Virus record (IMG/VR): IMGVR_UViG_3300045988_119033
DNA: 64,000 nt
Reading direction: 5' to 3' (one strand)
Origin: a virus
Shown: one piece after another, positions 3,001-8,177 of the stretch
Layout of the letters: each line of letters begins with the position of its first letter
Position numbering within the stretch: position 1 is the stretch's first letter
Made by a program: the position numbers and the translations under genes
The notes under the pieces: generated by a model
Told to the model about the DNA's origin: nothing
The model's input: only the letters and a program-made list of their open reading frames with translations
The model's database searches: none

Positions 3001-4932
3001 CCTGTTTTTTATAATAGCGCTTTTGGTATTGGAGACATGATACCATTCCCATACATGGATTACAGAAATGTAGGGTATCCAAGATATTTTGTTAATTATG
3101 ATACTGGAGAAGACGCTCTTGAGACAATAGATAACGAACGTTTCAATAGCTGGACATCATCTAATAAAGGAAGATACGCTTTTTATCCAAACAGGAAGAG
3201 CTTATACGAATTAAATGGTGACACATCCGGCAGGTACGTTAATGGAAGATTTTATACATGGTTCTATGGCATTCCTCAGTTCCTTGTAGAGTCTGAAATA
3301 AATTGTAATTTCAGATTAGAGGGCCCTCAGCCTTATGAATTATTCTATCCAAAAGTAGGAGATTTTGTTTGGTGGACACAAGAAAAGAACGTATCTATCC
3401 ATAGGGATAATGATTACAAGATAAGTCCTATCTATTCGTCGAGGATGACACTAACACCAAATGTATTGCCGGCAACGTACGAACGACGTTTTTATGACTG
3501 TGCTTACCAACGTCCTAATGGTGTTATATGGAGTAGGGCTGATGTATCTGAAAACAGTCAAACAGATCCGTGGCTGACGTACAAGCCTATGGACTATCAT
3601 GAGTTCCCAACCAACAACGGGAAGCTTATTCACATGAAGCGTATTGAATCCGATCAGATTCTTGTTAGATTCGAGGATCAGGTTTCGCTCCATAACGCCA
3701 TAGACGTAATCAAGGAGCGTACCTCCCCAGGGCGGGCTGAGATGGGCACCGGCGGTCTGTTCGCGTCCCGGCCTCTGGAGTACAACACGACCGACCTTGG
3801 CTATTCTGGAACCCAGAGTACTGAAATAATTAGTTCAGAATTTGGTCACTTCTGGGTGGATACTAAAAGAGCACAGGTGTTCATGACCGATCCAAATGGA
3901 CGCAATCTTAAGGAACTTAGTGTAGGTATCAGACATTGGCTTAAGCGTCATCTTCCGTTTAAGATCCTTAGATACGGAATAACTAATATCTTAACCGGTA
4001 CAGAGATGACAGAAGAAGATACAGACAATAAATTTATCGGTCTTGGTCTGTCTCTTGGATGGGATAACAGGTATAAGAGGGTACTTATCACGAAAAAAGA
4101 TTATATACCTGTTAAGAACCCGGCATATTATAAATATGATGGTGGAAGGTTCTTGTACAATGAAACAGAGGTGCTGTCAAACGATAAGAAAATATCTTTA
4201 AAAGACGAACAGTATTTCAAGGACGTGTCGTTCACTATCGGATATTCGTGTCTGAAACAAGAATGGATTTCTTATTATTCATTCTGTCCTGACTATTATA
4301 TAGAACAGCAACAATATTTCCAGACAGGAATAAACTTCCCGGCATCGGATGAAGAAGGTGGCTTATGGAGCCATTTGCTGACGAATAAGAGCTTTCAGAC
4401 ATTTTACGGAGCAACATATCCATTTATATTAGAAGTGCCGATAAAAGAGAAATATAACGGTTCTACGCTGGCTTCTGTTGAGTATGAGCTTGATGCGAGG
4501 AAATACGTCGATGATGTGAATTACACTCTTGACAGGAAAGTAGGTTTAGATACGATAACTATCTACAACGACACAAACAACTCAGGCGAAATTCATCTTG
4601 TTCCAGAAAAAAAGAATAATTTAGCGCAGCGTATATCGTATCCGAAGATCGTAGGCGACCATACTGAGATTCTGGATACCGAGGTATATAGAAGACATAA
4701 GTTAAACGACTTCTTTAATAGGGTTGACGATGACCGATCTGAAACACCTATCTGGATCAAGGACGATAACGATATAAATAAGTCGGTTAATCCTGATGCT
4801 CTTAATTTTAGACGGTCATGGCTTGATAGGTTAAGAGGAAGTTGGATGCTGATGAGGATAAAGAAAGTAATTAGCAACCGGAAGATTATATTCCAGTGGT
4901 TGATTTCTGAAGATAAGATTAAGAATAGATGA
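58..4932 (+). CDS. Giant virion-associated protein (1624 aa), possibly a tail fibre/spike-like structural protein; function not recognisable
   Basis: Uninterrupted 4.9 kb ORF in the plus-strand structural block, followed immediately by a Gly-rich fibre-like gene. No motif recognised. Confidence 0.45.
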   Translation: MEHVSTDYLYTTGGENQNKYSVLFNYDTMDSLSEWMDKAFFGDNAGDVSGDGERHLCSEFYPYLQPGSILKTVSDAIYVLDTMPCTCGCYIENYCSDPTVSRSDYNNFQNNNYILGGYILHIDGWSQKINGKGNWRAGRSTSTVINDQYRSKNGPKYCIEQFWPDASNKLQDMIYKNSDTGIPETDWEFEGYANNATFENPTGDKLNIGFASEFVVRKFVRNVMTNARFIRINRPEEWDIEGYKEENKVLYLEALGKIDGIMDAVSTNYVRVSFWKDIETWNPLGTIPVDFDRPEHASGHSVIINIARPAWGTIDDKFFKETIKQNYFYVTIESPVVAVPWIMTFRKIQFCEYKNKDTPDEEEEPSKKPSRAILGVSFVTGKTIYPYIFGIREKEVNKIDLSVDSITLRSTVLFASKCQTCGDRPINCKPRPYKYGDFAYWESSEKYPANFELYDSSRMKIDTGRSYDDPKKTEAYSNIMNKLTEYYGAPLSDKNGLSYFKGHSYGGIDTSTIFCQQPIRHYRFPDNKHIPFMNSDERGYDIASEIYPVGIMVDENTIQVFLDFAVDSGLITQQQRDTIVGYELYRGDRRLNRSVVASGLAYDMLRYIGDDGNVNIYPNYPYNDLSQDQYNYTSGKRDEFISHPFDKGGNVWYSFCSPDIYFNKPELPNEVCIDGFQRGMSVGSFVPVEDHPKWTILGPAAYTMAASLAAVESSATIAAMIAEELQIRAQSGYIGGSAGLTGGGFLTNLSVAMLFSSMVSTISQTLAKGPILYGKYRYDWLNTFINNGPRRNHAWYYTSVGLYNSMIGITDQDKYERNFARGLSSVKYIKSGVYPMMDASMSSKWGTGRNDNEGRFLFVNNIDRESSLFLSFGDPGEKGDGKSKYLLEYPNYVYNYDSSRIDDSVIAGSDVVAGRTFEQSKTVSYICSPYMRLMRYRPDQYGQIEDIKWISIGGCGFFTNEKKLMFGGDTVITRFSLKRKFPVFYNSAFGIGDMIPFPYMDYRNVGYPRYFVNYDTGEDALETIDNERFNSWTSSNKGRYAFYPNRKSLYELNGDTSGRYVNGRFYTWFYGIPQFLVESEINCNFRLEGPQPYELFYPKVGDFVWWTQEKNVSIHRDNDYKISPIYSSRMTLTPNVLPATYERRFYDCAYQRPNGVIWSRADVSENSQTDPWLTYKPMDYHEFPTNNGKLIHMKRIESDQILVRFEDQVSLHNAIDVIKERTSPGRAEMGTGGLFASRPLEYNTTDLGYSGTQSTEIISSEFGHFWVDTKRAQVFMTDPNGRNLKELSVGIRHWLKRHLPFKILRYGITNILTGTEMTEEDTDNKFIGLGLSLGWDNRYKRVLITKKDYIPVKNPAYYKYDGGRFLYNETEVLSNDKKISLKDEQYFKDVSFTIGYSCLKQEWISYYSFCPDYYIEQQQYFQTGINFPASDEEGGLWSHLLTNKSFQTFYGATYPFILEVPIKEKYNGSTLASVEYELDARKYVDDVNYTLDRKVGLDTITIYNDTNNSGEIHLVPEKKNNLAQRISYPKIVGDHTEILDTEVYRRHKLNDFFNRVDDDRSETPIWIKDDNDINKSVNPDALNFRRSWLDRLRGSWMLMRIKKVISNRKIIFQWLISEDKIKNR

Positions 4933-4933
4933 C

Positions 4934-5827
4934 ATGAGAAGAAGGTTTGAGGCATATAAACAACAACCAAAATTGGTGAAATTAATGGGTAATCTAGGGG
5001 TAGATCAGAATTATACGATAGAAAAAGGATATCGTTATTTTGATTTACTTGTAGTTGGAGGTGGCGGCGGAGGTGGCACAAACAGTGGTGGCGGTGGAGC
5101 TTCTGGAACAATAGCATTTGCTCGTAATATAAAAATCTCTTTGCTACCGAAAACTTTGACTTGTAAAATTGCAAAGCCTGTAAATGCACAAACTGATGGG
5201 GATAGTACAACTCTTGAAATAAACGGGGATACGATAATCTGTGCTGGAGGGCAAAGAGGTAATAGTGAGGGAGCAGGAGGGCTTGGTAATGGCTCTAAAA
5301 TACCAGACAGTATATATACCATTCTATCAAAGTTGGTAGAAAACCCATCTTCCGATATCGCGATTTGTAATAATGGTGGAGGCTCTCCTGGTTATTGGAA
5401 TGGTTCTTACGGTTATGCTGGTGGTTCAGGCGCATCTATGTCGGGTAATGGAAATTCATCGTCAGGAATGACCGGTGGAAACAGTGTAAGTAATGCAGAT
5501 GGTATGGGCGGTTATAAAGGTGGAAATAGTCAATCTTATCAAGGTGGTACAGGATATAAATATAACAATGTACTTATTCCTATTGGCCTATTTGGAGGAG
5601 GTGGAACTTCGGGGAAAGGCTCGAACGGATCTGGTTCGGATGGATCTGGAGCAGGTGGTGGGGCGGCAGGTCTTGAATCAGGTGGAAATGGTGGAAATTC
5701 AGGGTCAAGCAATCCTACGAATGGCGGAAATGGTGGCATTGGAGCTGGTGGCGGAGGAGGTGGTGGTCTGTCACGTAAAGGAGGAAAAGGAGGACAGGGT
5801 ATAATTTGTTTATATTATCATAATTGA
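4934..5827 (+). CDS. Glycine-rich collagen-like fibre protein with N-terminal MRRRFE motif
   Basis: Poly-Gly/GGxGG runs throughout. The start codon sits 1 nt after the upstream stop. The N-terminus MRRRFE is shared with the ORF at 42978 and is near-identical to the ORF at 25412. Antisense Pro-rich ORFs here are mirror artefacts. Confidence 0.5.
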   Translation: MRRRFEAYKQQPKLVKLMGNLGVDQNYTIEKGYRYFDLLVVGGGGGGGTNSGGGGASGTIAFARNIKISLLPKTLTCKIAKPVNAQTDGDSTTLEINGDTIICAGGQRGNSEGAGGLGNGSKIPDSIYTILSKLVENPSSDIAICNNGGGSPGYWNGSYGYAGGSGASMSGNGNSSSGMTGGNSVSNADGMGGYKGGNSQSYQGGTGYKYNNVLIPIGLFGGGGTSGKGSNGSGSDGSGAGGGAAGLESGGNGGNSGSSNPTNGGNGGIGAGGGGGGGLSRKGGKGGQGIICLYYHN

Positions 5828-5863
5828 TTTATTTATTCAAATTAATGTATTTTTAAATATTTT

Positions 5864-5896
5864 AATTTGATAATTAGATTTTAGTCTTTATATTTG
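5864..5896 (+). promoter_or_regulatory. Candidate Bacteroidetes-type promoter (-33 TTTG / -7 TATATTTG) driving the tRNA-like array
   Basis: TTTG at 5864-5867 and TATATTTG at 5889-5896, about 21 nt apart. This matches the Bacteroidetes sigma-A consensus TTTG-N19-21-TAnnTTTG. Confidence 0.4.
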
Positions 5897-5927
5897 CATC
5901 GTAATCAAGAGAGATTATGATATAAGA

Positions 5928-6017
5928 CAGTGGTGATGGAAGGTGATACTTCGGTTTGTGTCATAGGTTCGAGTCCTATATTTTTCATGCAAGAAAAATT
6001 AGATCAGTTGGTAGATC
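5928..6017 (+). ncRNA. tRNA-like element with permuted-looking order: T-arm plus 3' acceptor-like strand, then 5' acceptor-like strand plus D-arm
   Basis: T-arm ATAGG-TTCGAGT-CCTAT at 5963-5979, followed by ATTTTTC at 5980-5986. After a 6-nt spacer, GAAAAAT at 5993-5999 is its exact complement, then TA, then D-arm GATC-AGTTGGTA-GATC at 6002-6017. No anticodon arm found. Confidence 0.3.
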
Positions 6018-6099
6018 AAAACTTCCTTTCATATCAAAACACATTCCAGGTTTTCCCTGTTTTAATAAAATATACAGATGGTGAGGAGTTCGGTTACTT

Positions 6100-6172
6100 C
6101 GAAAATTAGCATAGTGGATAATGCGGTATTCTGTAAAAATACTTTTCATTGGTTCGAATCCAATATTTTCAT
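6100..6172 (+). tRNA. tRNA, anticodon GUA (Tyr-type), class I cloverleaf with a C1:A72 mismatch
   Basis: Hand-folded. Acceptor CGAAAAT/ATTTTCA (6 of 7 pairs); D-stem GCAT/ATGC with loop AGTGGATA; anticodon stem GTATT/AATAC with loop CTGTAAA; 5-nt variable loop; T-arm ATTGG-TTCGAAT-CCAAT; discriminator T. Confidence 0.55.
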
Positions 6173-6247
6173 TTTAATCATCCGGCTCCGTTTTTCCTCT
6201 GTTTGAAATATATAAAAACTAATGAGTGGTGATGGGGTTAGTTACTT

Positions 6248-6320
6248 CGAATTTAGCTCAGATGGATAGAGCGATACTCTTTTAAAGTATAGGTCAATGG
6301 TTCAAATCCATTATTTCATT
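6248..6320 (+). ncRNA. tRNA-like element (anticodon-loop UUU, Lys-type) with a degenerate acceptor stem; possible Y-RNA-like module
   Basis: D-arm GCTC-AGATGGATA-GAGC; anticodon stem ATACT/AGTAT with loop CTTTTAA; T-arm AATGG-TTCAAAT-CCATT. The acceptor strands do not pair (at best 4 of 7). A possible closing helix joins AATGAG(T)GG at 6221-6229 with CCCTCATT at 6343-6350. Confidence 0.4.
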
Positions 6321-6378
6321 GTTTACACTAACTTCAGCTTTTCCCTCATTGAGTATTCATTTTGATATATTTTTTTCA

Positions 6379-6409
6379 AGCAGTGGTAGTAATATCACTG
6401 CTTTTTTTG
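6379..6409 (+). terminator. Rho-independent terminator ending the tRNA-like array
   Basis: Stem AGCAGTG/CACTGCT with a 10-nt loop, followed by TTTTTTTGT. Confidence 0.6.
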
Positions 6410-6434
6410 TATAACACTTTAAAGAAAACAACAA

Positions 6435-8069
6435 ATGGGAAAGTTTAACAAAAAGGATGAAGGTGTTAAACCTACGATCGTGAATCACATGGGAGAGAAG
6501 GCGTATAAGCCTAACGCAGAAGAAGAGTTGGTATCTACGGTAATGACTACCATGTTATCTGATTCTTATTATGAGAAAGAAAAAGATAAAGTAGAAAGAA
6601 TTAAGAGCCTTATGGATCAAATAGATCCGTATTTCGCAGCACAAACAGCATTGTATGTCAGGAAAGAAGGAAAGCTTAGGTCAGTAACGCATCTTATGGC
6701 TTCTGTCCTTGCCAGCAAAGCATCGGGTAAGGAATGGGCTTCAAGGTTCTATAACAAGATCGTTATGCGTCCTGATGATATGAGCGAAATCCTTGGCTGT
6801 TATGCGGCTCTTAACGACAAAAATCCAAAGAAGTTAAGAGGAATATCCAGCGCTATTAAGAAAGGATTTAAGACGGCTTTGGAAGGTCTTGATCCGTATC
6901 GGATTGATAAGTATAAGATGGACAGTAGGGTCATTACTATGGTTGACTTAGTAAACTTATTTCACCCTAAAGGCAATCAGGCTAACAAAACGGCTTTCCA
7001 GTACCTTATAGAAGGTAGGTCTTTGTCTGGATTATACGAAAGCAAGATTCTTGAAAAAGAAATGTCTAAAGCCGGACAGGATAAGAAAGATAATAAGGAA
7101 AAGAAAGAAGCTTTAGGTGACGCTATTCGGGACGTGGTTTCTAATGTAAAAGGTATGCCTATTTTTAATATGGTTCGTAACCTTGTAAACATAATCAAAT
7201 ACGCACCTGATCAAATAGATGAAGTTTGTAGGCAGCTTACAATAGAAGAGAAGGTGCTTAATTCGAAGATGCTTCCTTTCCGTTTTGCTTCAGCTTTCAA
7301 AGAGGTTGAAAATATGGGCACTGATGGTTCCGATAACGATATTGTATTTGAGTCGGATAAAAAACGAGCTAAATTAACAGCGCGTAATAAATATAAGATT
7401 TTAGATGCGTTGGAGAAAGCCATAACCATCTCCTGCAAGAACTTGCCGGTATTGGAGGGGCGGTCGGCTATCCTGATTGACCACTCTGGCTCTGTACGTG
7501 GAGATATGGGAGGATCTTCTGAAGTGTCTGCCTTTAGCAAAACAAATACGGCTGTCATTGGTAACTTGTTTGGCTGTATGATTGCTTCTGTGCTTCCTGA
7601 CGTATTTATTGGTATGTTTGGTGACAAACTTATCAATTACGAATATGATAGAAGCAGAGGTGTTTTATGGAACAACAAAAAATCTTTTACTGCCGGAGGA
7701 GAATGCGGTGGTGCTACTGAAAACGGTCTTTTTGCATTCTTGGAAAAGTGCATCAAAGATAAGATAAAAGTAGATAACTTGTACGTTATTTCAGATATGC
7801 AGATAGGAGATGGCGAATCTATTGTATGGGAAAAAAGTTCCAATTATGAATATGGTAAATTCGCTGAACTTTTGAAAAAGTTCAAGAAAGTGAATCCAAA
7901 TTGCAAAATCGTTTCTATTTCTATTCAAGGATATGGAAGTGAGATGTTTTACAGAGGATCTAATATCTTGAACATAGCTGGCTGGTCAGAATCTATCTTC
8001 GATGTTATTAACAGCAAGTTCTGCGGATATAAGAATATGATTGAGGAAATTAAGAAAATAAAAATATAA
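6435..8069 (+). CDS. rsr: Ro60/Rsr orthologue (TROVE domain plus C-terminal vWA domain with a DxSGS MIDAS motif)
   Basis: 544 aa, the size of Ro60. The N-terminal TROVE-like stretch (SDSYYEKEK ... FAAQTALYVRKEG) aligns by eye to Ro60. The C-terminal vWA region carries ILIDHSGSV (DxSGS), AGGECG and LYVISDMQ in the order of the Ro60 vWA domain. Confidence 0.7.
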   Translation: MGKFNKKDEGVKPTIVNHMGEKAYKPNAEEELVSTVMTTMLSDSYYEKEKDKVERIKSLMDQIDPYFAAQTALYVRKEGKLRSVTHLMASVLASKASGKEWASRFYNKIVMRPDDMSEILGCYAALNDKNPKKLRGISSAIKKGFKTALEGLDPYRIDKYKMDSRVITMVDLVNLFHPKGNQANKTAFQYLIEGRSLSGLYESKILEKEMSKAGQDKKDNKEKKEALGDAIRDVVSNVKGMPIFNMVRNLVNIIKYAPDQIDEVCRQLTIEEKVLNSKMLPFRFASAFKEVENMGTDGSDNDIVFESDKKRAKLTARNKYKILDALEKAITISCKNLPVLEGRSAILIDHSGSVRGDMGGSSEVSAFSKTNTAVIGNLFGCMIASVLPDVFIGMFGDKLINYEYDRSRGVLWNNKKSFTAGGECGGATENGLFAFLEKCIKDKIKVDNLYVISDMQIGDGESIVWEKSSNYEYGKFAELLKKFKKVNPNCKIVSISIQGYGSEMFYRGSNILNIAGWSESIFDVINSKFCGYKNMIEEIKKIKI

Positions 8070-8128
8070 TCATTGATTTTGCTTCAAATGTAATTTCCAT
8101 AGTAAAAAAGTTTTAGCTTTAAAGGTAT

Positions 8129-8167
8129 AGCCGAAGAAGTACGTGAGTATATCTTCGGCTTTTTTTA
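8129..8167 (+). terminator. Rho-independent terminator after rsr
   Basis: Stem AGCCGAAGA/TCTTCGGCT with a 14-nt loop, followed by a T7 run. Confidence 0.7.
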
Positions 8168-8169
8168 TT

Positions 8170-8177
8170 TACCTTTG
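8170..8177 (+). promoter_or_regulatory. Bacteroidetes-type -7 box TACCTTTG
   Basis: TAnnTTTG motif 18 nt upstream of the ATG at 8195. Confidence 0.4.

What the first reader, a model, noticed from the sequence alone, without database searches (positions are those of the whole stretch)
5860..8069. Phage-encoded Ro60/Rsr orthologue immediately downstream of an array of tRNA-like RNAs (candidate Y-RNA locus)
ORF 6435-8069 has the size and domain order of Ro60 (TROVE then vWA, with a DHSGS MIDAS motif). The 600 bp upstream (5864-6412) has its own Bacteroidetes-type promoter and a rho-independent terminator. It contains one canonical tRNA and at least two tRNA-like elements with T-arms of the GGTTCGA(A/G)TCC type. 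In bacteria, Rsr genes are typically flanked by Y RNAs that carry a tRNA-like module. An intact Ro60-plus-Y-RNA unit inside the structural region of a Bacteroidetes-type phage would be an unusual RNA-surveillance or RNA-decoy module.
Basis: partly seen in the sequence, partly recalled or inferred. Interest (0 to 1): 0.8.

Follow-up and report, generated by a model that had tools for sequence, protein, structure and literature searches.

The report
Phage Ro60 with three Y RNAs
A common human-gut crAss-like phage carries a self-contained cassette encoding a Ro60 RNA-binding ring protein plus three Y RNAs; two of them, annotated publicly as ordinary tRNAs, are whole tRNA cloverleaves mounted on a Ro60-binding stem, and their anticodons change between near-identical phages.

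Summary
ORF 6435-8069 is a full-length Ro60 (TROVE plus vWA/MIDAS), by Pfam, PHROG, PDB sequence search and fold search.

The 5866-6409 region is one promoter-to-terminator unit. It holds three tandem RNAs: U1 5924-6063, U2 6074-6202, U3 6220-6351. All three share a YrlA-type Ro60-binding scaffold: a helix with a bulged U, GGUGA, a covarying second helix, then UUACUUCGA, with a 3' UUUUCC strand. The scaffold travels with TROVE genes down to 23-35% identity, including crAss001.

U1 is a diverged YrlA. U2 and U3 are annotated tRNA-Tyr and tRNA-Lys in phage csAssE-Sib. They are complete cloverleaves whose acceptor end continues into the scaffold.

- Their acceptor stems are conserved in a defective form.
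- The U2 tRNA module is missing in some relatives while the scaffold stays.
- Anticodons switch on otherwise conserved bodies in three lineages.

Phage Ro60 with Y RNAs is a known kind. The three-unit array in crAss-like phages, the cloverleaf architecture and the anticodon switching are new. What the particle does is inferred, not shown.

The parts
5866..5896 (+). Bacteroidetes-type promoter: TTTG (5866-5869) and TAtaTTTG (5889-5896), 19 nt apart
   Evidence: Sequence. The equivalent TAnnTTTG box precedes the Y RNA in L085, L086, L096 and L094. A sigma-70-style scan also flags 5867-5894. Promoter function is inferred.
5898..5921 (+). Leader hairpin (AUCGUAAUC AAGAGA GAUUAUGAU) before the first unit
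   Evidence: Folds at -8.3 kcal/mol, z = -4.5. The core GUAAUCAAGAGAGAUUAU is conserved in L085, whose Ro60 is 73% identical. Role unknown.
5924..6063 (+). Y RNA unit U1, YrlA-type. Helix 1 is 5924-5930 with 6057-6063, with bulged U 5931 and GG/CC. GGUGA starts at 5932. Helix 2 is 5937-5945 with 6040-6048. AUACUUCGG is 5946-5954. T arm 5962-5980, closed acceptor-like hairpin 5981-5998, D arm 6001-6017.
   Evidence: Rfam YrlA 30 bits, E=8e-4, below the gathering score of 69. The MFE fold recovers helix 1, T, AS and D hairpins. Helix 2 is a perfect 9 bp in most relatives. Coordinates.
6074..6202 (+). Y RNA unit U2: the scaffold continues from the acceptor end of a complete cloverleaf. tRNA-like part 6100-6172; anticodon arm 6126-6142, loop CUGUAAA.
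   Evidence: ARAGORN tRNA-Tyr(GTA), Rfam tRNA 56.9 bits. In 32 distinct relatives 95.8% of cells are paired. D, anticodon and T stems show changes on both sides. Pair 1:72 is never formed, 0 of 32. The anticodon arm has 14 of 17 variable columns against 23 of 113 elsewhere. The tRNA module is absent in L089, L092 and L011 while the scaffold is kept.
6220..6351 (+). Y RNA unit U3: same architecture. tRNA-like part 6247-6320; anticodon arm 6274-6290, loop CUUUUAA.
   Evidence: ARAGORN tRNA-Lys(TTT), Rfam tRNA 54.7 bits. In 24 sequences 90.7% of cells are paired and 11 pairs change on both sides. The acceptor is only 56% paired; 3 of 7 positions are essentially never paired (0, 0 and 1 of 24 sequences). 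L085 carries GUG in this unit. Variants UUC and GUU exist.
6378..6409 (+). Intrinsic terminator ending the Y-RNA array, 26 nt before the Ro60 start codon
   Evidence: -14.8 kcal/mol, z = -6.4. No TAnnTTTG box lies between it and the ATG. Ro60 expression by read-through is inferred.
6435..8069 (+). Ro60/Rsr orthologue, 544 aa: TROVE HEAT-repeat ring plus vWA domain, with MIDAS DHSGS at 7479-7493
   Evidence: Pfam TROVE E=2.6e-14. PHROG 850 'RNA-binding protein', E=6e-30, full length. PDB phmmer hits phiLo Ro60 9l5y at E=4e-16. AF2 model pLDDT 74. The 13 best Foldseek PDB hits are all Ro60/TROVE chains at E 8e-12 to 1e-7, aligned over 480-580 columns.
8130..8166 (+). Intrinsic terminator closing the cassette. 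The next gene has its own TAccTTTG box at 8170-8177.
   Evidence: -19.5 kcal/mol, z = -5.4.

Best explanation
The region 5866-8166 is an autonomous accessory cassette of an epsilon crAss-like phage. It makes a Ro60 ribonucleoprotein.

Transcription and processing (inferred). One Bacteroidetes-type promoter drives a roughly 500-nt transcript: a leader hairpin, then three Y RNAs separated by A/U-rich spacers, then a terminator. Ro60 is translated from read-through transcripts. Host nucleases presumably cut the three units apart.

What each unit carries (shown by comparison). Every unit has the same Ro60-docking scaffold. Helix 1 has a bulged U followed by GG:CC. A 5' UGA faces a 3' RYUUUU. Helix 2 is conserved in pairing, not in sequence. 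Then comes UUACUUCGA. This is the YrlA/M. smegmatis-type Ro-binding module.

How the units differ. In U1 the scaffold takes the place of the anticodon arm, so the acceptor/T elbow points away from Ro60, as in YrlA. In U2 and U3 the scaffold continues from the acceptor stem, so the anticodon arm and elbow are what the particle displays.

Most likely mechanism (inferred from D. radiodurans, Salmonella and phage phiLo). Ro60 binds the scaffold. The tRNA-shaped module acts as the adaptor that docks the particle onto host tRNA-recognising proteins or an exoribonuclease such as PNPase. The phage thereby redirects host RNA decay or tRNA-centred processes. The three modules give three specificities. 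For U2 and U3 the anticodon loop is the specificity determinant.
For: Protein. It is Ro60 by four independent tests.

Scaffold.
- It is present in all three units, and three units are present in 77 of 101 loci in which the scan found units.
- In 27 TROVE-adjacent units from distant phages, helix 2 has 24 different octamers differing at 5.3 of 8 positions. It still pairs at 7.07 of 8, against 5.01 +/- 0.19 for shuffled partners, 0 of 2000.
- MFE folds recover it independently.

Association with TROVE. In an IMG/VR motif scan, 52 of 61 loci with the full scaffold carry a TROVE gene, against 1 of 58 without it. These include TROVE genes of only 23-35% identity.

Motifs. They match the published YrlA features: GNCGAAN0-1G (GGCGAAG in L135c; GGUGAUG as in M. 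smegmatis YrlA) and YUAY.

U1. It gets the best Rfam match to YrlA. Relatives score 31 and 38 bits.

U2 and U3 are not plain tRNAs.
- The phage's four other tRNAs are tightly packed, with no scaffold around them. Three have fully Watson-Crick 7-bp acceptor stems and the fourth has one G.U pair.
- U2 and U3 have A/U-only, mismatched acceptor stems that are conserved as such.
- The same CGAAAAU/AUUUUCA helix with a C.A top pair recurs beside a 30%-identical TROVE gene.
- U2's 'Tyr' module lacks the long variable arm. About half of the loci have G instead of U33.
- The tRNA module can be deleted with the scaffold kept.

Precedent. Ro60-Y RNA-PNPase complexes are described in D. radiodurans and for phage phiLo.
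Against: - No expression, processing or binding data exist for this phage. The ends of the mature RNAs are guesses.
- Rfam YrlA scores are far below the gathering score (30 against 69).
- Helix 1 was used as a search criterion, so its pairing is partly by construction. Helix 2 was not.
- U2 and U3 score as good tRNAs (55-57 bits). U3's CUUUUAA loop is conserved in over 50 loci. Some relatives have near-perfect acceptor stems (L101, 6 of 7). M. smegmatis YrlA is known to be cut by RNase P and to receive CCA. Release of working tRNAs is therefore not excluded.
- The effector (PNPase or other) is borrowed from other systems.
- My scaffold scan found a unit in only one of the 13 genome-derived loci. 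Some 56%-identical Ro60 genes have a different upstream RNA.
Confidence: 0.72

Rival explanations
1. U2 and U3 are precursors of working phage tRNAs. The paired leader and trailer (the scaffold) are a Ro60-bound processing or storage form. RNase P and 3' trimming release tRNAs that supplement host tRNAs or replace those destroyed by host defences. Anticodon switching retargets the replacement to whichever tRNA the local host defence cuts.
For: - Rfam tRNA scores of 55-57 bits, with all L-shape elements present: U8, A14, G18G19, TΨC loop.
- U3's anticodon loop is conserved.
- L101 has a 6-of-7 acceptor stem with A73.
- Phage tRNA-Tyr and tRNA-Lys are known to rescue phages from tRNA-cutting defences (PMC11555353, PMC10264068).
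- For many synthetases the anticodon is the main identity element (my own knowledge), so a switch could re-assign identity.
Against: - Pair 1:72 never forms in U2. Three of seven acceptor pairs are essentially never formed in U3.
- Chen et al. name a 7-bp acceptor stem as a major RNase P determinant.
- The 'Tyr' and 'Ser' versions lack the long variable arm that bacterial TyrRS and SerRS need (my own knowledge).
- G33 replaces the universal U33 in about half of U2 copies.
- The tRNA part of U2 is dispensable.
- The discriminator is U, not A, in both.
- The phage's other tRNAs need no scaffold.
Confidence: 0.2
2. The upstream region is simply a small tRNA gene cluster (Tyr, Lys and a pseudo-tRNA) that happens to sit next to a Ro60 gene, as annotated in GenBank. 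The flanking similarity is a by-product of tandem duplication.
For: The GenBank record OR575929 annotates tRNA-Tyr and tRNA-Lys here. ARAGORN and Rfam call them tRNAs.
Against: - The flanks are conserved and covary across phages whose Ro60 proteins are only 23-56% identical. They occur with non-tRNA or permuted inner modules.
- The scaffold co-occurs with TROVE genes.
- U1 has the permuted YrlA order T arm, hairpin, D arm, which no tRNA gene has.
Confidence: 0.03
3. The cassette is an anti-defence decoy. The Ro60-stabilised anticodon stem-loops of U2 and U3 soak up, or report on, host anticodon nucleases and other anticodon-reading defence proteins.
For: - Changes concentrate in the anticodon arm on otherwise conserved bodies in three lineages.
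- Hughes et al. proposed that the YrlA tRNA-like domain could competitively inhibit an anticodon nuclease.
- Tyr(GUA) and Lys(UUU) are targets of retron-Eco7 and of PrrC-type nucleases.
- csAssE-Sib also encodes a polynucleotide kinase/3'-phosphatase.
Against: - The anticodons seen across relatives cover many amino acids: Ile, Arg, Pro, Ser, Thr, Gln, His, Glu. No specific defence is implicated.
- No host or defence system is known for this phage.
- The three lineages amount to few independent events.
- Relaxed constraint on a loop could contribute to U2's variability.
Confidence: 0.18

Closest known systems
YrlA Y RNAs with Rsr (Salmonella, M. smegmatis, mycobacteriophages; Rfam RF02553; Chen et al. 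2014, PMC4201824)
   Same: - Encoded beside the Ro60 gene.
- A 5' GNCGAA-type motif (GGUGAUG, as in M. smegmatis), then YUAY.
- A tRNA-like domain with T arm, closed acceptor-like hairpin and D arm (U1).
- Often more than one Y RNA per locus.
   Different: - Rfam score is only 30 bits against a gathering score of 69.
- There is an extra outer helix with an invariant bulged U.
- Three units sit in one transcript.
- U2 and U3 have the opposite attachment, scaffold on the acceptor end, and keep a full anticodon arm, which YrlA lacks.
Deinococcus radiodurans Yrn1 with Rsr and PNPase (RYPER)
   Same: The Y stem continues from the acceptor side. The stem-loop between the D-like and T arms sits where an anticodon arm would. 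The tether-to-exoribonuclease mechanism is the model used here.
   Different: Yrn1 has only a partial D arm, a 6-nt 'anticodon' loop and no variable arm. U2 and U3 are complete cloverleaves that tRNA finders accept. PNPase binding is untested here.
Thermus phage phiLo Ro60 with Yrl1 and Yrl2 (PMC12135203; PDB 9KOP, 9L5Y)
   Same: A phage-encoded Ro60 with Y-like RNAs found just upstream through a CGAA motif. It is the closest solved structure to this protein.
   Different: About 20% sequence identity. It has two RNAs, and in the passages I read tRNA is mentioned only twice and no cloverleaf is described for them. The host and phage family are different.
crAss001 gp96 TROVE protein (Kehishuvirus primarius)
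   Same: A Crassvirales TROVE protein, 24% identical. Its unannotated downstream gap holds about five units with the same scaffold.
   Different: - gp96 is an early gene at the genome end, not in the structural block.
- Its RNAs lie downstream of the gene.
- Two of them use a third topology: open 7-bp acceptor stem, with a scaffold hairpin in place of the anticodon arm.
- No Y RNA has been reported for it in the papers I could search.
Phage tRNAs that evade tRNA-targeting defences (PMC10264068, PMC11555353)
   Same: Phage-encoded Tyr- and Lys-type tRNA bodies with altered anticodon loops.
   Different: Those are free, functional tRNAs in tRNA arrays. These are embedded in a Ro60-binding scaffold and have defective acceptor stems.

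Membership tests
Ro60 / Rsr (TROVE) proteins | TROVE domain (HEAT-repeat ring) | tested here: met
   Pfam PF05731, E=2.6e-14, 53.7 bits against a cut-off of 23. PHROG 850 over the full length. phmmer to phiLo Ro60, E=4e-16.
Ro60 / Rsr (TROVE) proteins | C-terminal vWA domain with a MIDAS motif (DxSxS...T...D) | tested here: met
   DHSGS at residues 349-353. D349, S351, S353, T428 and D454 are invariant in 23 homologues. The model has a beta-alpha-beta pattern over 344-496. Weaker Foldseek hits to vWF A1 and integrin I domains. Pfam itself reports no vWA hit.
Ro60 / Rsr (TROVE) proteins | Overall Ro60 fold over the whole chain | tested here: met
   The 13 best Foldseek PDB hits are all Ro60/TROVE chains, E 8e-12 to 1e-7, aligned over 480-580 columns. 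The model is of moderate quality: pLDDT 74, TM 0.45-0.54.
Ro60 / Rsr (TROVE) proteins | Binds Y RNA or misfolded RNA | not testable with these tools
   Needs EMSA or RIP.
YrlA-type Y RNA | Encoded next to the Ro60 gene, same strand | tested here: met
   U1-U3 end 84-372 nt before the ATG. The same arrangement occurs in relatives.
YrlA-type Y RNA | GNCGAAN0-1G-type motif near the 5' end, then YUAY | tested here: met
   GGUGAUG or GGUGAGG in U1-U3 (U in place of C, as in the M. smegmatis YrlA primer sequence GCGCTTGGTGATGTGAG). The exact GGCGAAG occurs in L135c. AUAC or UUAC follows helix 2.
YrlA-type Y RNA | tRNA-like domain in the order T arm, closed acceptor-like hairpin, D arm | tested here: met
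   Met for U1. Not met for U2 and U3, which have the normal tRNA order with an anticodon arm.
YrlA-type Y RNA | Reaches the Rfam RF02553 gathering score | tested here: not met
   30.0 bits against 69 for U1. 31 and 38 bits in relatives. I therefore file it as a diverged relative or new variant, not as an RF02553 member.
YrlA-type Y RNA | Bound by Rsr; carries Ψ55 and dihydrouridine | not testable with these tools
   Experimental.
Canonical bacterial or phage tRNA (for U2, U3) | Cloverleaf reaching the Rfam tRNA gathering score | tested here: met
   56.9 and 54.7 bits against 29.
Canonical bacterial or phage tRNA (for U2, U3) | 7-bp acceptor stem | tested here: not met
   U2: pair 1:72 is C.A in 32 of 32 sequences. 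U3: pairs 1:72, 2:71 and 6:67 are unpaired in 23-24 of 24. Of the phage's four other tRNAs, three have fully Watson-Crick 7-bp stems and one has a single G.U pair.
Canonical bacterial or phage tRNA (for U2, U3) | Anticodon and U33 held constant among close relatives | tested here: not met
   U2 shows GUA, GCA and GUU, with G33 in about half of the loci. Related units switch GAU, UCU and UUU, or GUG and GCU, on the same body. U3's UUU is mostly conserved.
Canonical bacterial or phage tRNA (for U2, U3) | Class II long variable arm for bacterial tRNA-Tyr | tested here: not met
   U2 is 73 nt with a short variable loop. That bacterial tRNA-Tyr requires the long arm is from my own knowledge.
Canonical bacterial or phage tRNA (for U2, U3) | Processed, CCA-ended, aminoacylated | not testable with these tools
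   No CCA is encoded. Needs tRNA-seq or acid gels.

The most novel reading that the evidence does not exclude
The cloverleaf-bearing units (U2, U3 and their relatives) are Ro60-mounted 'anticodon displays'. A conserved tRNA-shaped body is held by its acceptor end on Ro60. Its anticodon triplet is swapped under diversifying selection to match whichever host tRNA, or tRNA-reading defence protein, the phage must counter. Candidate defence proteins include anticodon nucleases such as PrrC, PARIS, retron-Eco7 or Schlafen-type enzymes. The display would act as a decoy, as a bait that hands the bound factor or RNA to an exonuclease, or as a nuclease-proof replacement. If so, this is a programmable anti-defence ribonucleoprotein in one of the most abundant human-gut phage groups.
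Probability: 0.2. Interest if true: 0.9.

Novelty: new variant of a known kind. Interest (0 to 1): 0.72.

Why it matters
- Function of bacterial and phage Y RNAs. Ro60 and Y RNAs are conserved from bacteria to humans, yet what the tRNA-like part of bacterial Y RNAs is for remains open. Here the same Ro60-docking scaffold is joined to a tRNA shape in opposite orientations within one transcript. In relatives it occurs in a third orientation, or with no tRNA shape at all. That is a natural domain-swap series, and it makes the question testable.
- Anticodon switching. Changes concentrate in the anticodon arm on otherwise conserved bodies. This points to the anticodon loop as the working end of these RNAs. 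It links Ro60 particles to the current picture of tRNA-centred phage-host conflict.
- Annotation. tRNA finders label these RNAs as tRNA-Tyr, Lys, Gln, Arg and so on in crAss-like phage genomes. That inflates tRNA counts and codon-usage arguments.
- An available model. crAss001 is cultured and appears to carry a similar array, so experiments are feasible now.
- Possible link to autoimmunity. This Ro60 is very common in human-gut metagenomes: its protein clusters hold thousands of member sequences. Commensal Ro60 orthologues have been proposed as triggers of anti-Ro autoimmunity. That last point is from my own knowledge and was not checked here.

Tried and rejected
- NCBIfam gave no hit for the protein.
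- Rfam at relaxed E-value gave only below-threshold YrlA matches. Its other weak hits (greA leader, Transposase-1 and others, all inside the ORF) are chance.
- Single-sequence folding z-scores of the units are unremarkable (-0.1 to -1.3). Thermodynamics alone does not support the structures; the comparative evidence does.
- My first reading of U1 ended it at 6035 and paired GGAAGG with CUUCC at 6021. Relatives show the true partner is 6040-6048 and the unit ends at 6063.
- I suspected a frameshift in the muzzle gene at 4932. This was wrong. Homology to relatives ends there, and ORF 4934-5827 is an extra gene in a variable slot.
- The 5' motif alone is not diagnostic. About half of the IMG/VR pattern matches had neither a full scaffold nor a TROVE gene, and are chance.
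- MAFFT could not align units across families. Helix 2 and loop lengths vary. I therefore counted helix 2 with a per-sequence register and a partner-shuffle control, rather than with the count of structure pairs.
- A scan of one genome per species found only 13 relatives, mostly on small MAG contigs. My scaffold scan hit only one of them.
- I built no covariance model. The inner modules differ too much in length and topology for a single model.
- The idea that the anticodons are restricted to known nuclease targets (Lys, Tyr) was not borne out. Relatives carry many different anticodons.


Full report
**What the window is.** Window 5860-8069 is 96.3% identical over its full length to phage csAssE-Sib (OR575929, 151 kb, human gut). 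That phage is called crAssE-Sib in its paper, which describes it as an epsilon crAss-like phage. The record annotates a 'Ro sixty-related protein' preceded by tRNA-Tyr and tRNA-Lys. These lie between the muzzle-protein gene and a tail-lysozyme gene. The paper counts six tRNAs. My term search of it found no mention of Ro60, TROVE, Rsr or ribonucleoprotein. More than 220 IMG/VR contigs encode the same protein at 96-99% identity. The 90%-identity protein clusters hold thousands of member sequences.

**The protein.** ORF 6435-8069 (544 aa) is a Ro60 on every test.
- Pfam TROVE, E=2.6e-14.
- PHROG 850 'RNA-binding protein' over its full length, E=6e-30.
- The Ro60 of Thermus phage phiLo in the PDB, E=4e-16.
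- An AlphaFold2 model (pLDDT 74) whose 13 best Foldseek PDB matches are all Ro60/TROVE chains: phiLo, D. radiodurans Rsr, Xenopus and human Ro60. They align over 480-580 columns at E 8e-12 to 1e-7.

The MIDAS residues are invariant in 23 homologues: DHSGS at 349-353, plus T428 and D454. NCBIfam has no model for it. The protein half of the finding is settled.

**The transcription unit.**
- A Bacteroidetes-type promoter lies at 5866-5896: TTTG, 19 nt, TAtaTTTG.
- A conserved leader hairpin follows at 5898-5921.
- A strong terminator lies at 6378-6409, 26 nt before the ATG.
- A second strong terminator lies at 8130-8166.
- The next gene then has its own TAccTTTG box.

I found no promoter box between the first terminator and the ATG. 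Ro60 is therefore probably made from read-through transcripts; this is inference. The cassette is thus self-contained. The space between the muzzle gene and the cassette varies from about 120 to 1400 nt among relatives. In this window it holds an extra glycine-rich ORF, 4934-5827, that csAssE-Sib lacks.

**Three RNAs, one scaffold.** ARAGORN and Rfam see two tRNAs (6100-6172 GTA; 6247-6320 TTT). Rfam also sees a below-threshold YrlA match at 5936-6035. Reading the flanks shows that all three sit in the same frame.

| Element | Sequence or form |
|---|---|
| Helix 1 | 5-7 bp, 5' strand |
| Bulge | invariant U |
| Next pairs | GG paired to CC (AG:CU in some relatives) |
| Internal loop | 5' UGA facing 3' RYUUUU |
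| Helix 2 | 8-10 bp |
| After helix 2 | (U/A)UACUUCGA |

The units are U1 5924-6063, U2 6074-6202 and U3 6220-6351. A scan for this frame finds only these three sites in the whole 64 kb, on either strand. Simulated sequence gives 0.33 per 64 kb. Of the 101 loci in which the scan found units, 77 have all three.

**The scaffold is a real, selected structure tied to Ro60.** I used helix 1 as a search criterion, so I do not count it as evidence. Helix 2 was not used.
- In 27 units that lie next to TROVE genes in distant phages, helix 2 has 24 different octamers differing at 5.3 of 8 positions. It pairs at 7.07 of 8 on average. Partners shuffled among units give 5.01 +/- 0.19, and none of 2000 shuffles reach the observed value.
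- MFE folding recovers helix 1 with its bulge, and helix 2, in almost every unit without constraints.
- An IMG/VR scan for the 5' motif returned 119 loci. Of these, 61 have the complete scaffold and 52 of those carry a TROVE gene. Only 1 of the 58 without the scaffold does.
- The TROVE proteins involved are as little as 23-35% identical to this one. L135 has three tandem units, L201 one, and L184 and L220 have units downstream.
- Single units sit directly between promoter and Ro60 in L086, L096, L102-L106 and L108. These include 350-430-kb phage contigs.

**Relation to published Y RNAs.** Chen et al. 2014 define YrlA by four features: a GNCGAAN0-1G motif near the 5' end, a YUAY that opens the variable region, a tRNA-like domain in the order T arm, closed acceptor-like hairpin, D arm, and adjacency to rsr.
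- Here the motif reads GGUGAUG or GGUGAGG. The same UUGGUGAUGUGAG is the 5' end of M. smegmatis YrlA in that paper's primer.
- L135c has the textbook GGCGAAG.
- UUAC or AUAC is the YUAY.
- U1 has exactly the YrlA order: T arm 5962-5980, hairpin 5981-5998, D arm 6001-6017.

U1 is therefore a diverged YrlA. Its Rfam score (30 bits; 31 and 38 in relatives) is far below the gathering score of 69. I call it a relative, not a member of RF02553.

**U2 and U3 are something else.** In these units the scaffold continues from the acceptor stem of a complete cloverleaf with D, anticodon and T arms.

On 32 distinct U2 sequences, 95.8% of cells pair. The D, anticodon and T stems show changes on both sides: CG to UA in 12, UA to CG in 7, and others. 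Every control is lower. On 24 U3 sequences, 90.7% pair and 11 pairs change on both sides. The L-shaped tRNA fold is therefore under selection.

They do not, however, behave like the phage's real tRNAs.
- The four other tRNAs of csAssE-Sib (Met, Gln, Arg, Cys) are tightly packed, with no scaffold around them. Three have fully Watson-Crick 7-bp acceptor stems and tRNA-Gln has one G.U pair.
- U2 has C.A at 1:72 in 32 of 32 sequences. U3 lacks three of seven acceptor pairs in essentially all sequences.
- This is conservation, not decay. The identical helix CGAAAAU/AUUUUCA with the C.A top pair recurs in L254 and L263, beside a TROVE gene only 30% identical.
- U2's 'Tyr' module lacks the long variable arm.
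- In L085 only its anticodon hairpin remains. In L089, L092 and L011 the whole tRNA part is gone while the scaffold stays.

**Anticodon switching.** This came up during the work and was not in the original finding.
- Epsilon U2. Among phages whose Ro60 is 96-99% identical, the U2 anticodon arm has 14 of 17 variable columns, against 23 of 113 in the rest of the unit (Fisher p=1e-6). The loops read AGGUAAA, GGUACA, CUGUAAA, CUGUAAU, CUGCAAA/U and CUGUUAA. Half of the loci therefore lack the universal U33, and the triplet can be GUA, GCA or GUU.
- cr111-like crAss phages. L255 and L284 differ at about 19% of flanking positions. From 34 nt before to 260 nt after the UUACUUCGA motif they differ at only two positions, both in the anticodon (GAU against UCU). 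L265 carries UUU on the same body.
- L254 and L263. The body is conserved. The changes are the anticodon (GUG to GCU), nucleotide 37 and one compensated stem pair. The 'Ser' version has no long variable arm.
- Across TROVE-linked units of this architecture I saw Tyr, Lys, His, Arg, Ile, Gln, Pro, Ser, Thr and Glu anticodons.
- U3 of the epsilon group is the conservative case: CUUUUAA in over 50 loci, with rare UUC and GUU variants, and GUG in the 73% relative.

The sample amounts to three lineages and few independent events. I treat diversifying selection as a strong lead, not a result.

**A modular family.** The same scaffold occurs in four forms.
- With no tRNA part: L102-L108, and three crAss001 units.
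- With the YrlA arrangement: U1, L086, L096, L135, L201, L184.
- With the acceptor-attached cloverleaf: U2, U3, L101, L105, L251-L266, and the annotated 'tRNA-Gln' of cr111_1.
- In crAss001, with a third topology. The RNA ends lie at a 7-bp acceptor stem, and the scaffold is a closed hairpin replacing the anticodon arm.

These crAss001 RNAs fill an unannotated gap of about 900 nt downstream of the TROVE gene gp96. That gene is known only as an early gene and 'possible ribonucleoprotein component'. My literature searches found no paper linking Y RNAs to crAss-like phages.

**Mechanism.**

*Shown by comparison.* The cassette encodes a Ro60 protein and three RNAs that carry a conserved, covarying, Ro60-linked scaffold with tRNA-shaped modules.

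*Inferred from D. radiodurans, Salmonella and phage phiLo.* Ro60 binds the scaffold, and the distal module tethers the particle to other proteins such as PNPase.

*Inferred from geometry.* U1 leaves the acceptor/T elbow free. U2 and U3 leave the anticodon arm free. The three RNAs should therefore address different partners, and for U2 and U3 the anticodon loop is the likely specificity determinant.

Two more specific readings remain open.
- Working tRNAs. [quoted passage not shown] Phage tRNA-Tyr and tRNA-Lys that rescue phages from tRNA-cutting defences.
- Decoys or baits for anticodon-reading proteins. Hughes et al. suggested competitive inhibition of an anticodon nuclease for YrlA.

The defective acceptor stems, the missing class II arms, G33 and the dispensability of the U2 module argue against ordinary decoding. 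They do not exclude it for every unit.

**Verdict.** Phage Ro60 with Y RNAs is a known kind, so the bare claim is not novel. Four things are new: the triple array in an abundant gut phage group, a Y-RNA architecture that carries a complete anticodon arm and is annotated as tRNA in public records, the family-wide modularity, and the concentration of change in the anticodon arm. I rate it a new variant of a known kind, interest 0.72.

Noticed in passing
L083 4420-5330 (gap downstream of the TROVE gene gp96 of Bacteroides phage crAss001, NC_049977; reverse strand of the record): An unannotated gap of about 900 nt downstream of the TROVE gene gp96 holds about five Y-scaffold units. Two are simple. 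Two are tRNA-like, with an open 7-bp acceptor stem and the scaffold as a closed hairpin in place of the anticodon arm; one of these is the Rfam 'tRNA with a 70-nt insert' hit at 4693-4836. One more simple unit lies at 5089-5233, followed by a terminator. I found no report of this.
   Followed up: partly
L082 1917-1992 (cr111_1, NC_055880) and L101 841-972, L105 164-288: The annotated tRNA-Gln of cr111_1, and Arg/Lys-type cloverleaves in related crAss phages, sit inside the same Ro60 scaffold, 0.5-1.3 kb upstream of the Ro60 gene. tRNA counts in Crassvirales genomes probably include Y RNAs.
   Followed up: partly
L255, L284, L265 (cr111-like contigs); L254, L263: Near-identical scaffolded tRNA-like bodies differ essentially only in the anticodon: GAU, UCU and UUU in one group, GUG and GCU in the other. 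Their flanks are about 81-92% identical in the cr111-like group.
   Followed up: partly
L084 about 4790-4900 and L097 (upstream of Ro60 genes 56% identical to this one): Where the Y RNA would be, there is a different structured-looking RNA: AGAAAGAUAACCUCGUCUAAGGGUAAGUGCAGG...GUGCAACGCCACCCUAAUUAGUCUUUCU. It has no Rfam hit and no scaffold motif.
   Followed up: no
window 4934-5827: A 297-aa ORF with a glycine-rich C-terminal half and a weak PHROG 863 'tail fibre assembly' hit is absent from csAssE-Sib. Homology to relatives stops at 4930, the end of the muzzle gene. The spacer before the Y array varies from 120 to 1400 nt among relatives, so this is a variable insertion slot.
   Followed up: partly
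L231 3537-4409 and 2615-3571 (csAssE-Sib, outside the window): The phage also encodes a polynucleotide kinase/3'-phosphatase and an NrnA-type phosphodiesterase. These are RNA end-healing and oligoribonuclease activities, which would fit a tRNA damage and repair theme.
   Followed up: no
L232-L244 (genome-contig scan): Only 13 relatives of this Ro60 clade turned up among one genome for each of 185,579 species. Most are on small MAG contigs. Exceptions are a 560-kb Lachnospiraceae A4 scaffold and a 118-kb Prevotella scaffold; the Prevotella one has a scaffold unit. The clade looks essentially phage-borne.
   Followed up: partly
L135 1491-1937: A distant phage, with a TROVE protein 24% identical, also has three tandem Y RNAs upstream of its Ro60. 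All three are YrlA-type, so arrays of three have arisen more than once or are old.
   Followed up: no
window 5898-5921: A leader hairpin between promoter and U1 is conserved in the 73% relative L085. Its role (5' stabiliser, processing site) is unknown.
   Followed up: no
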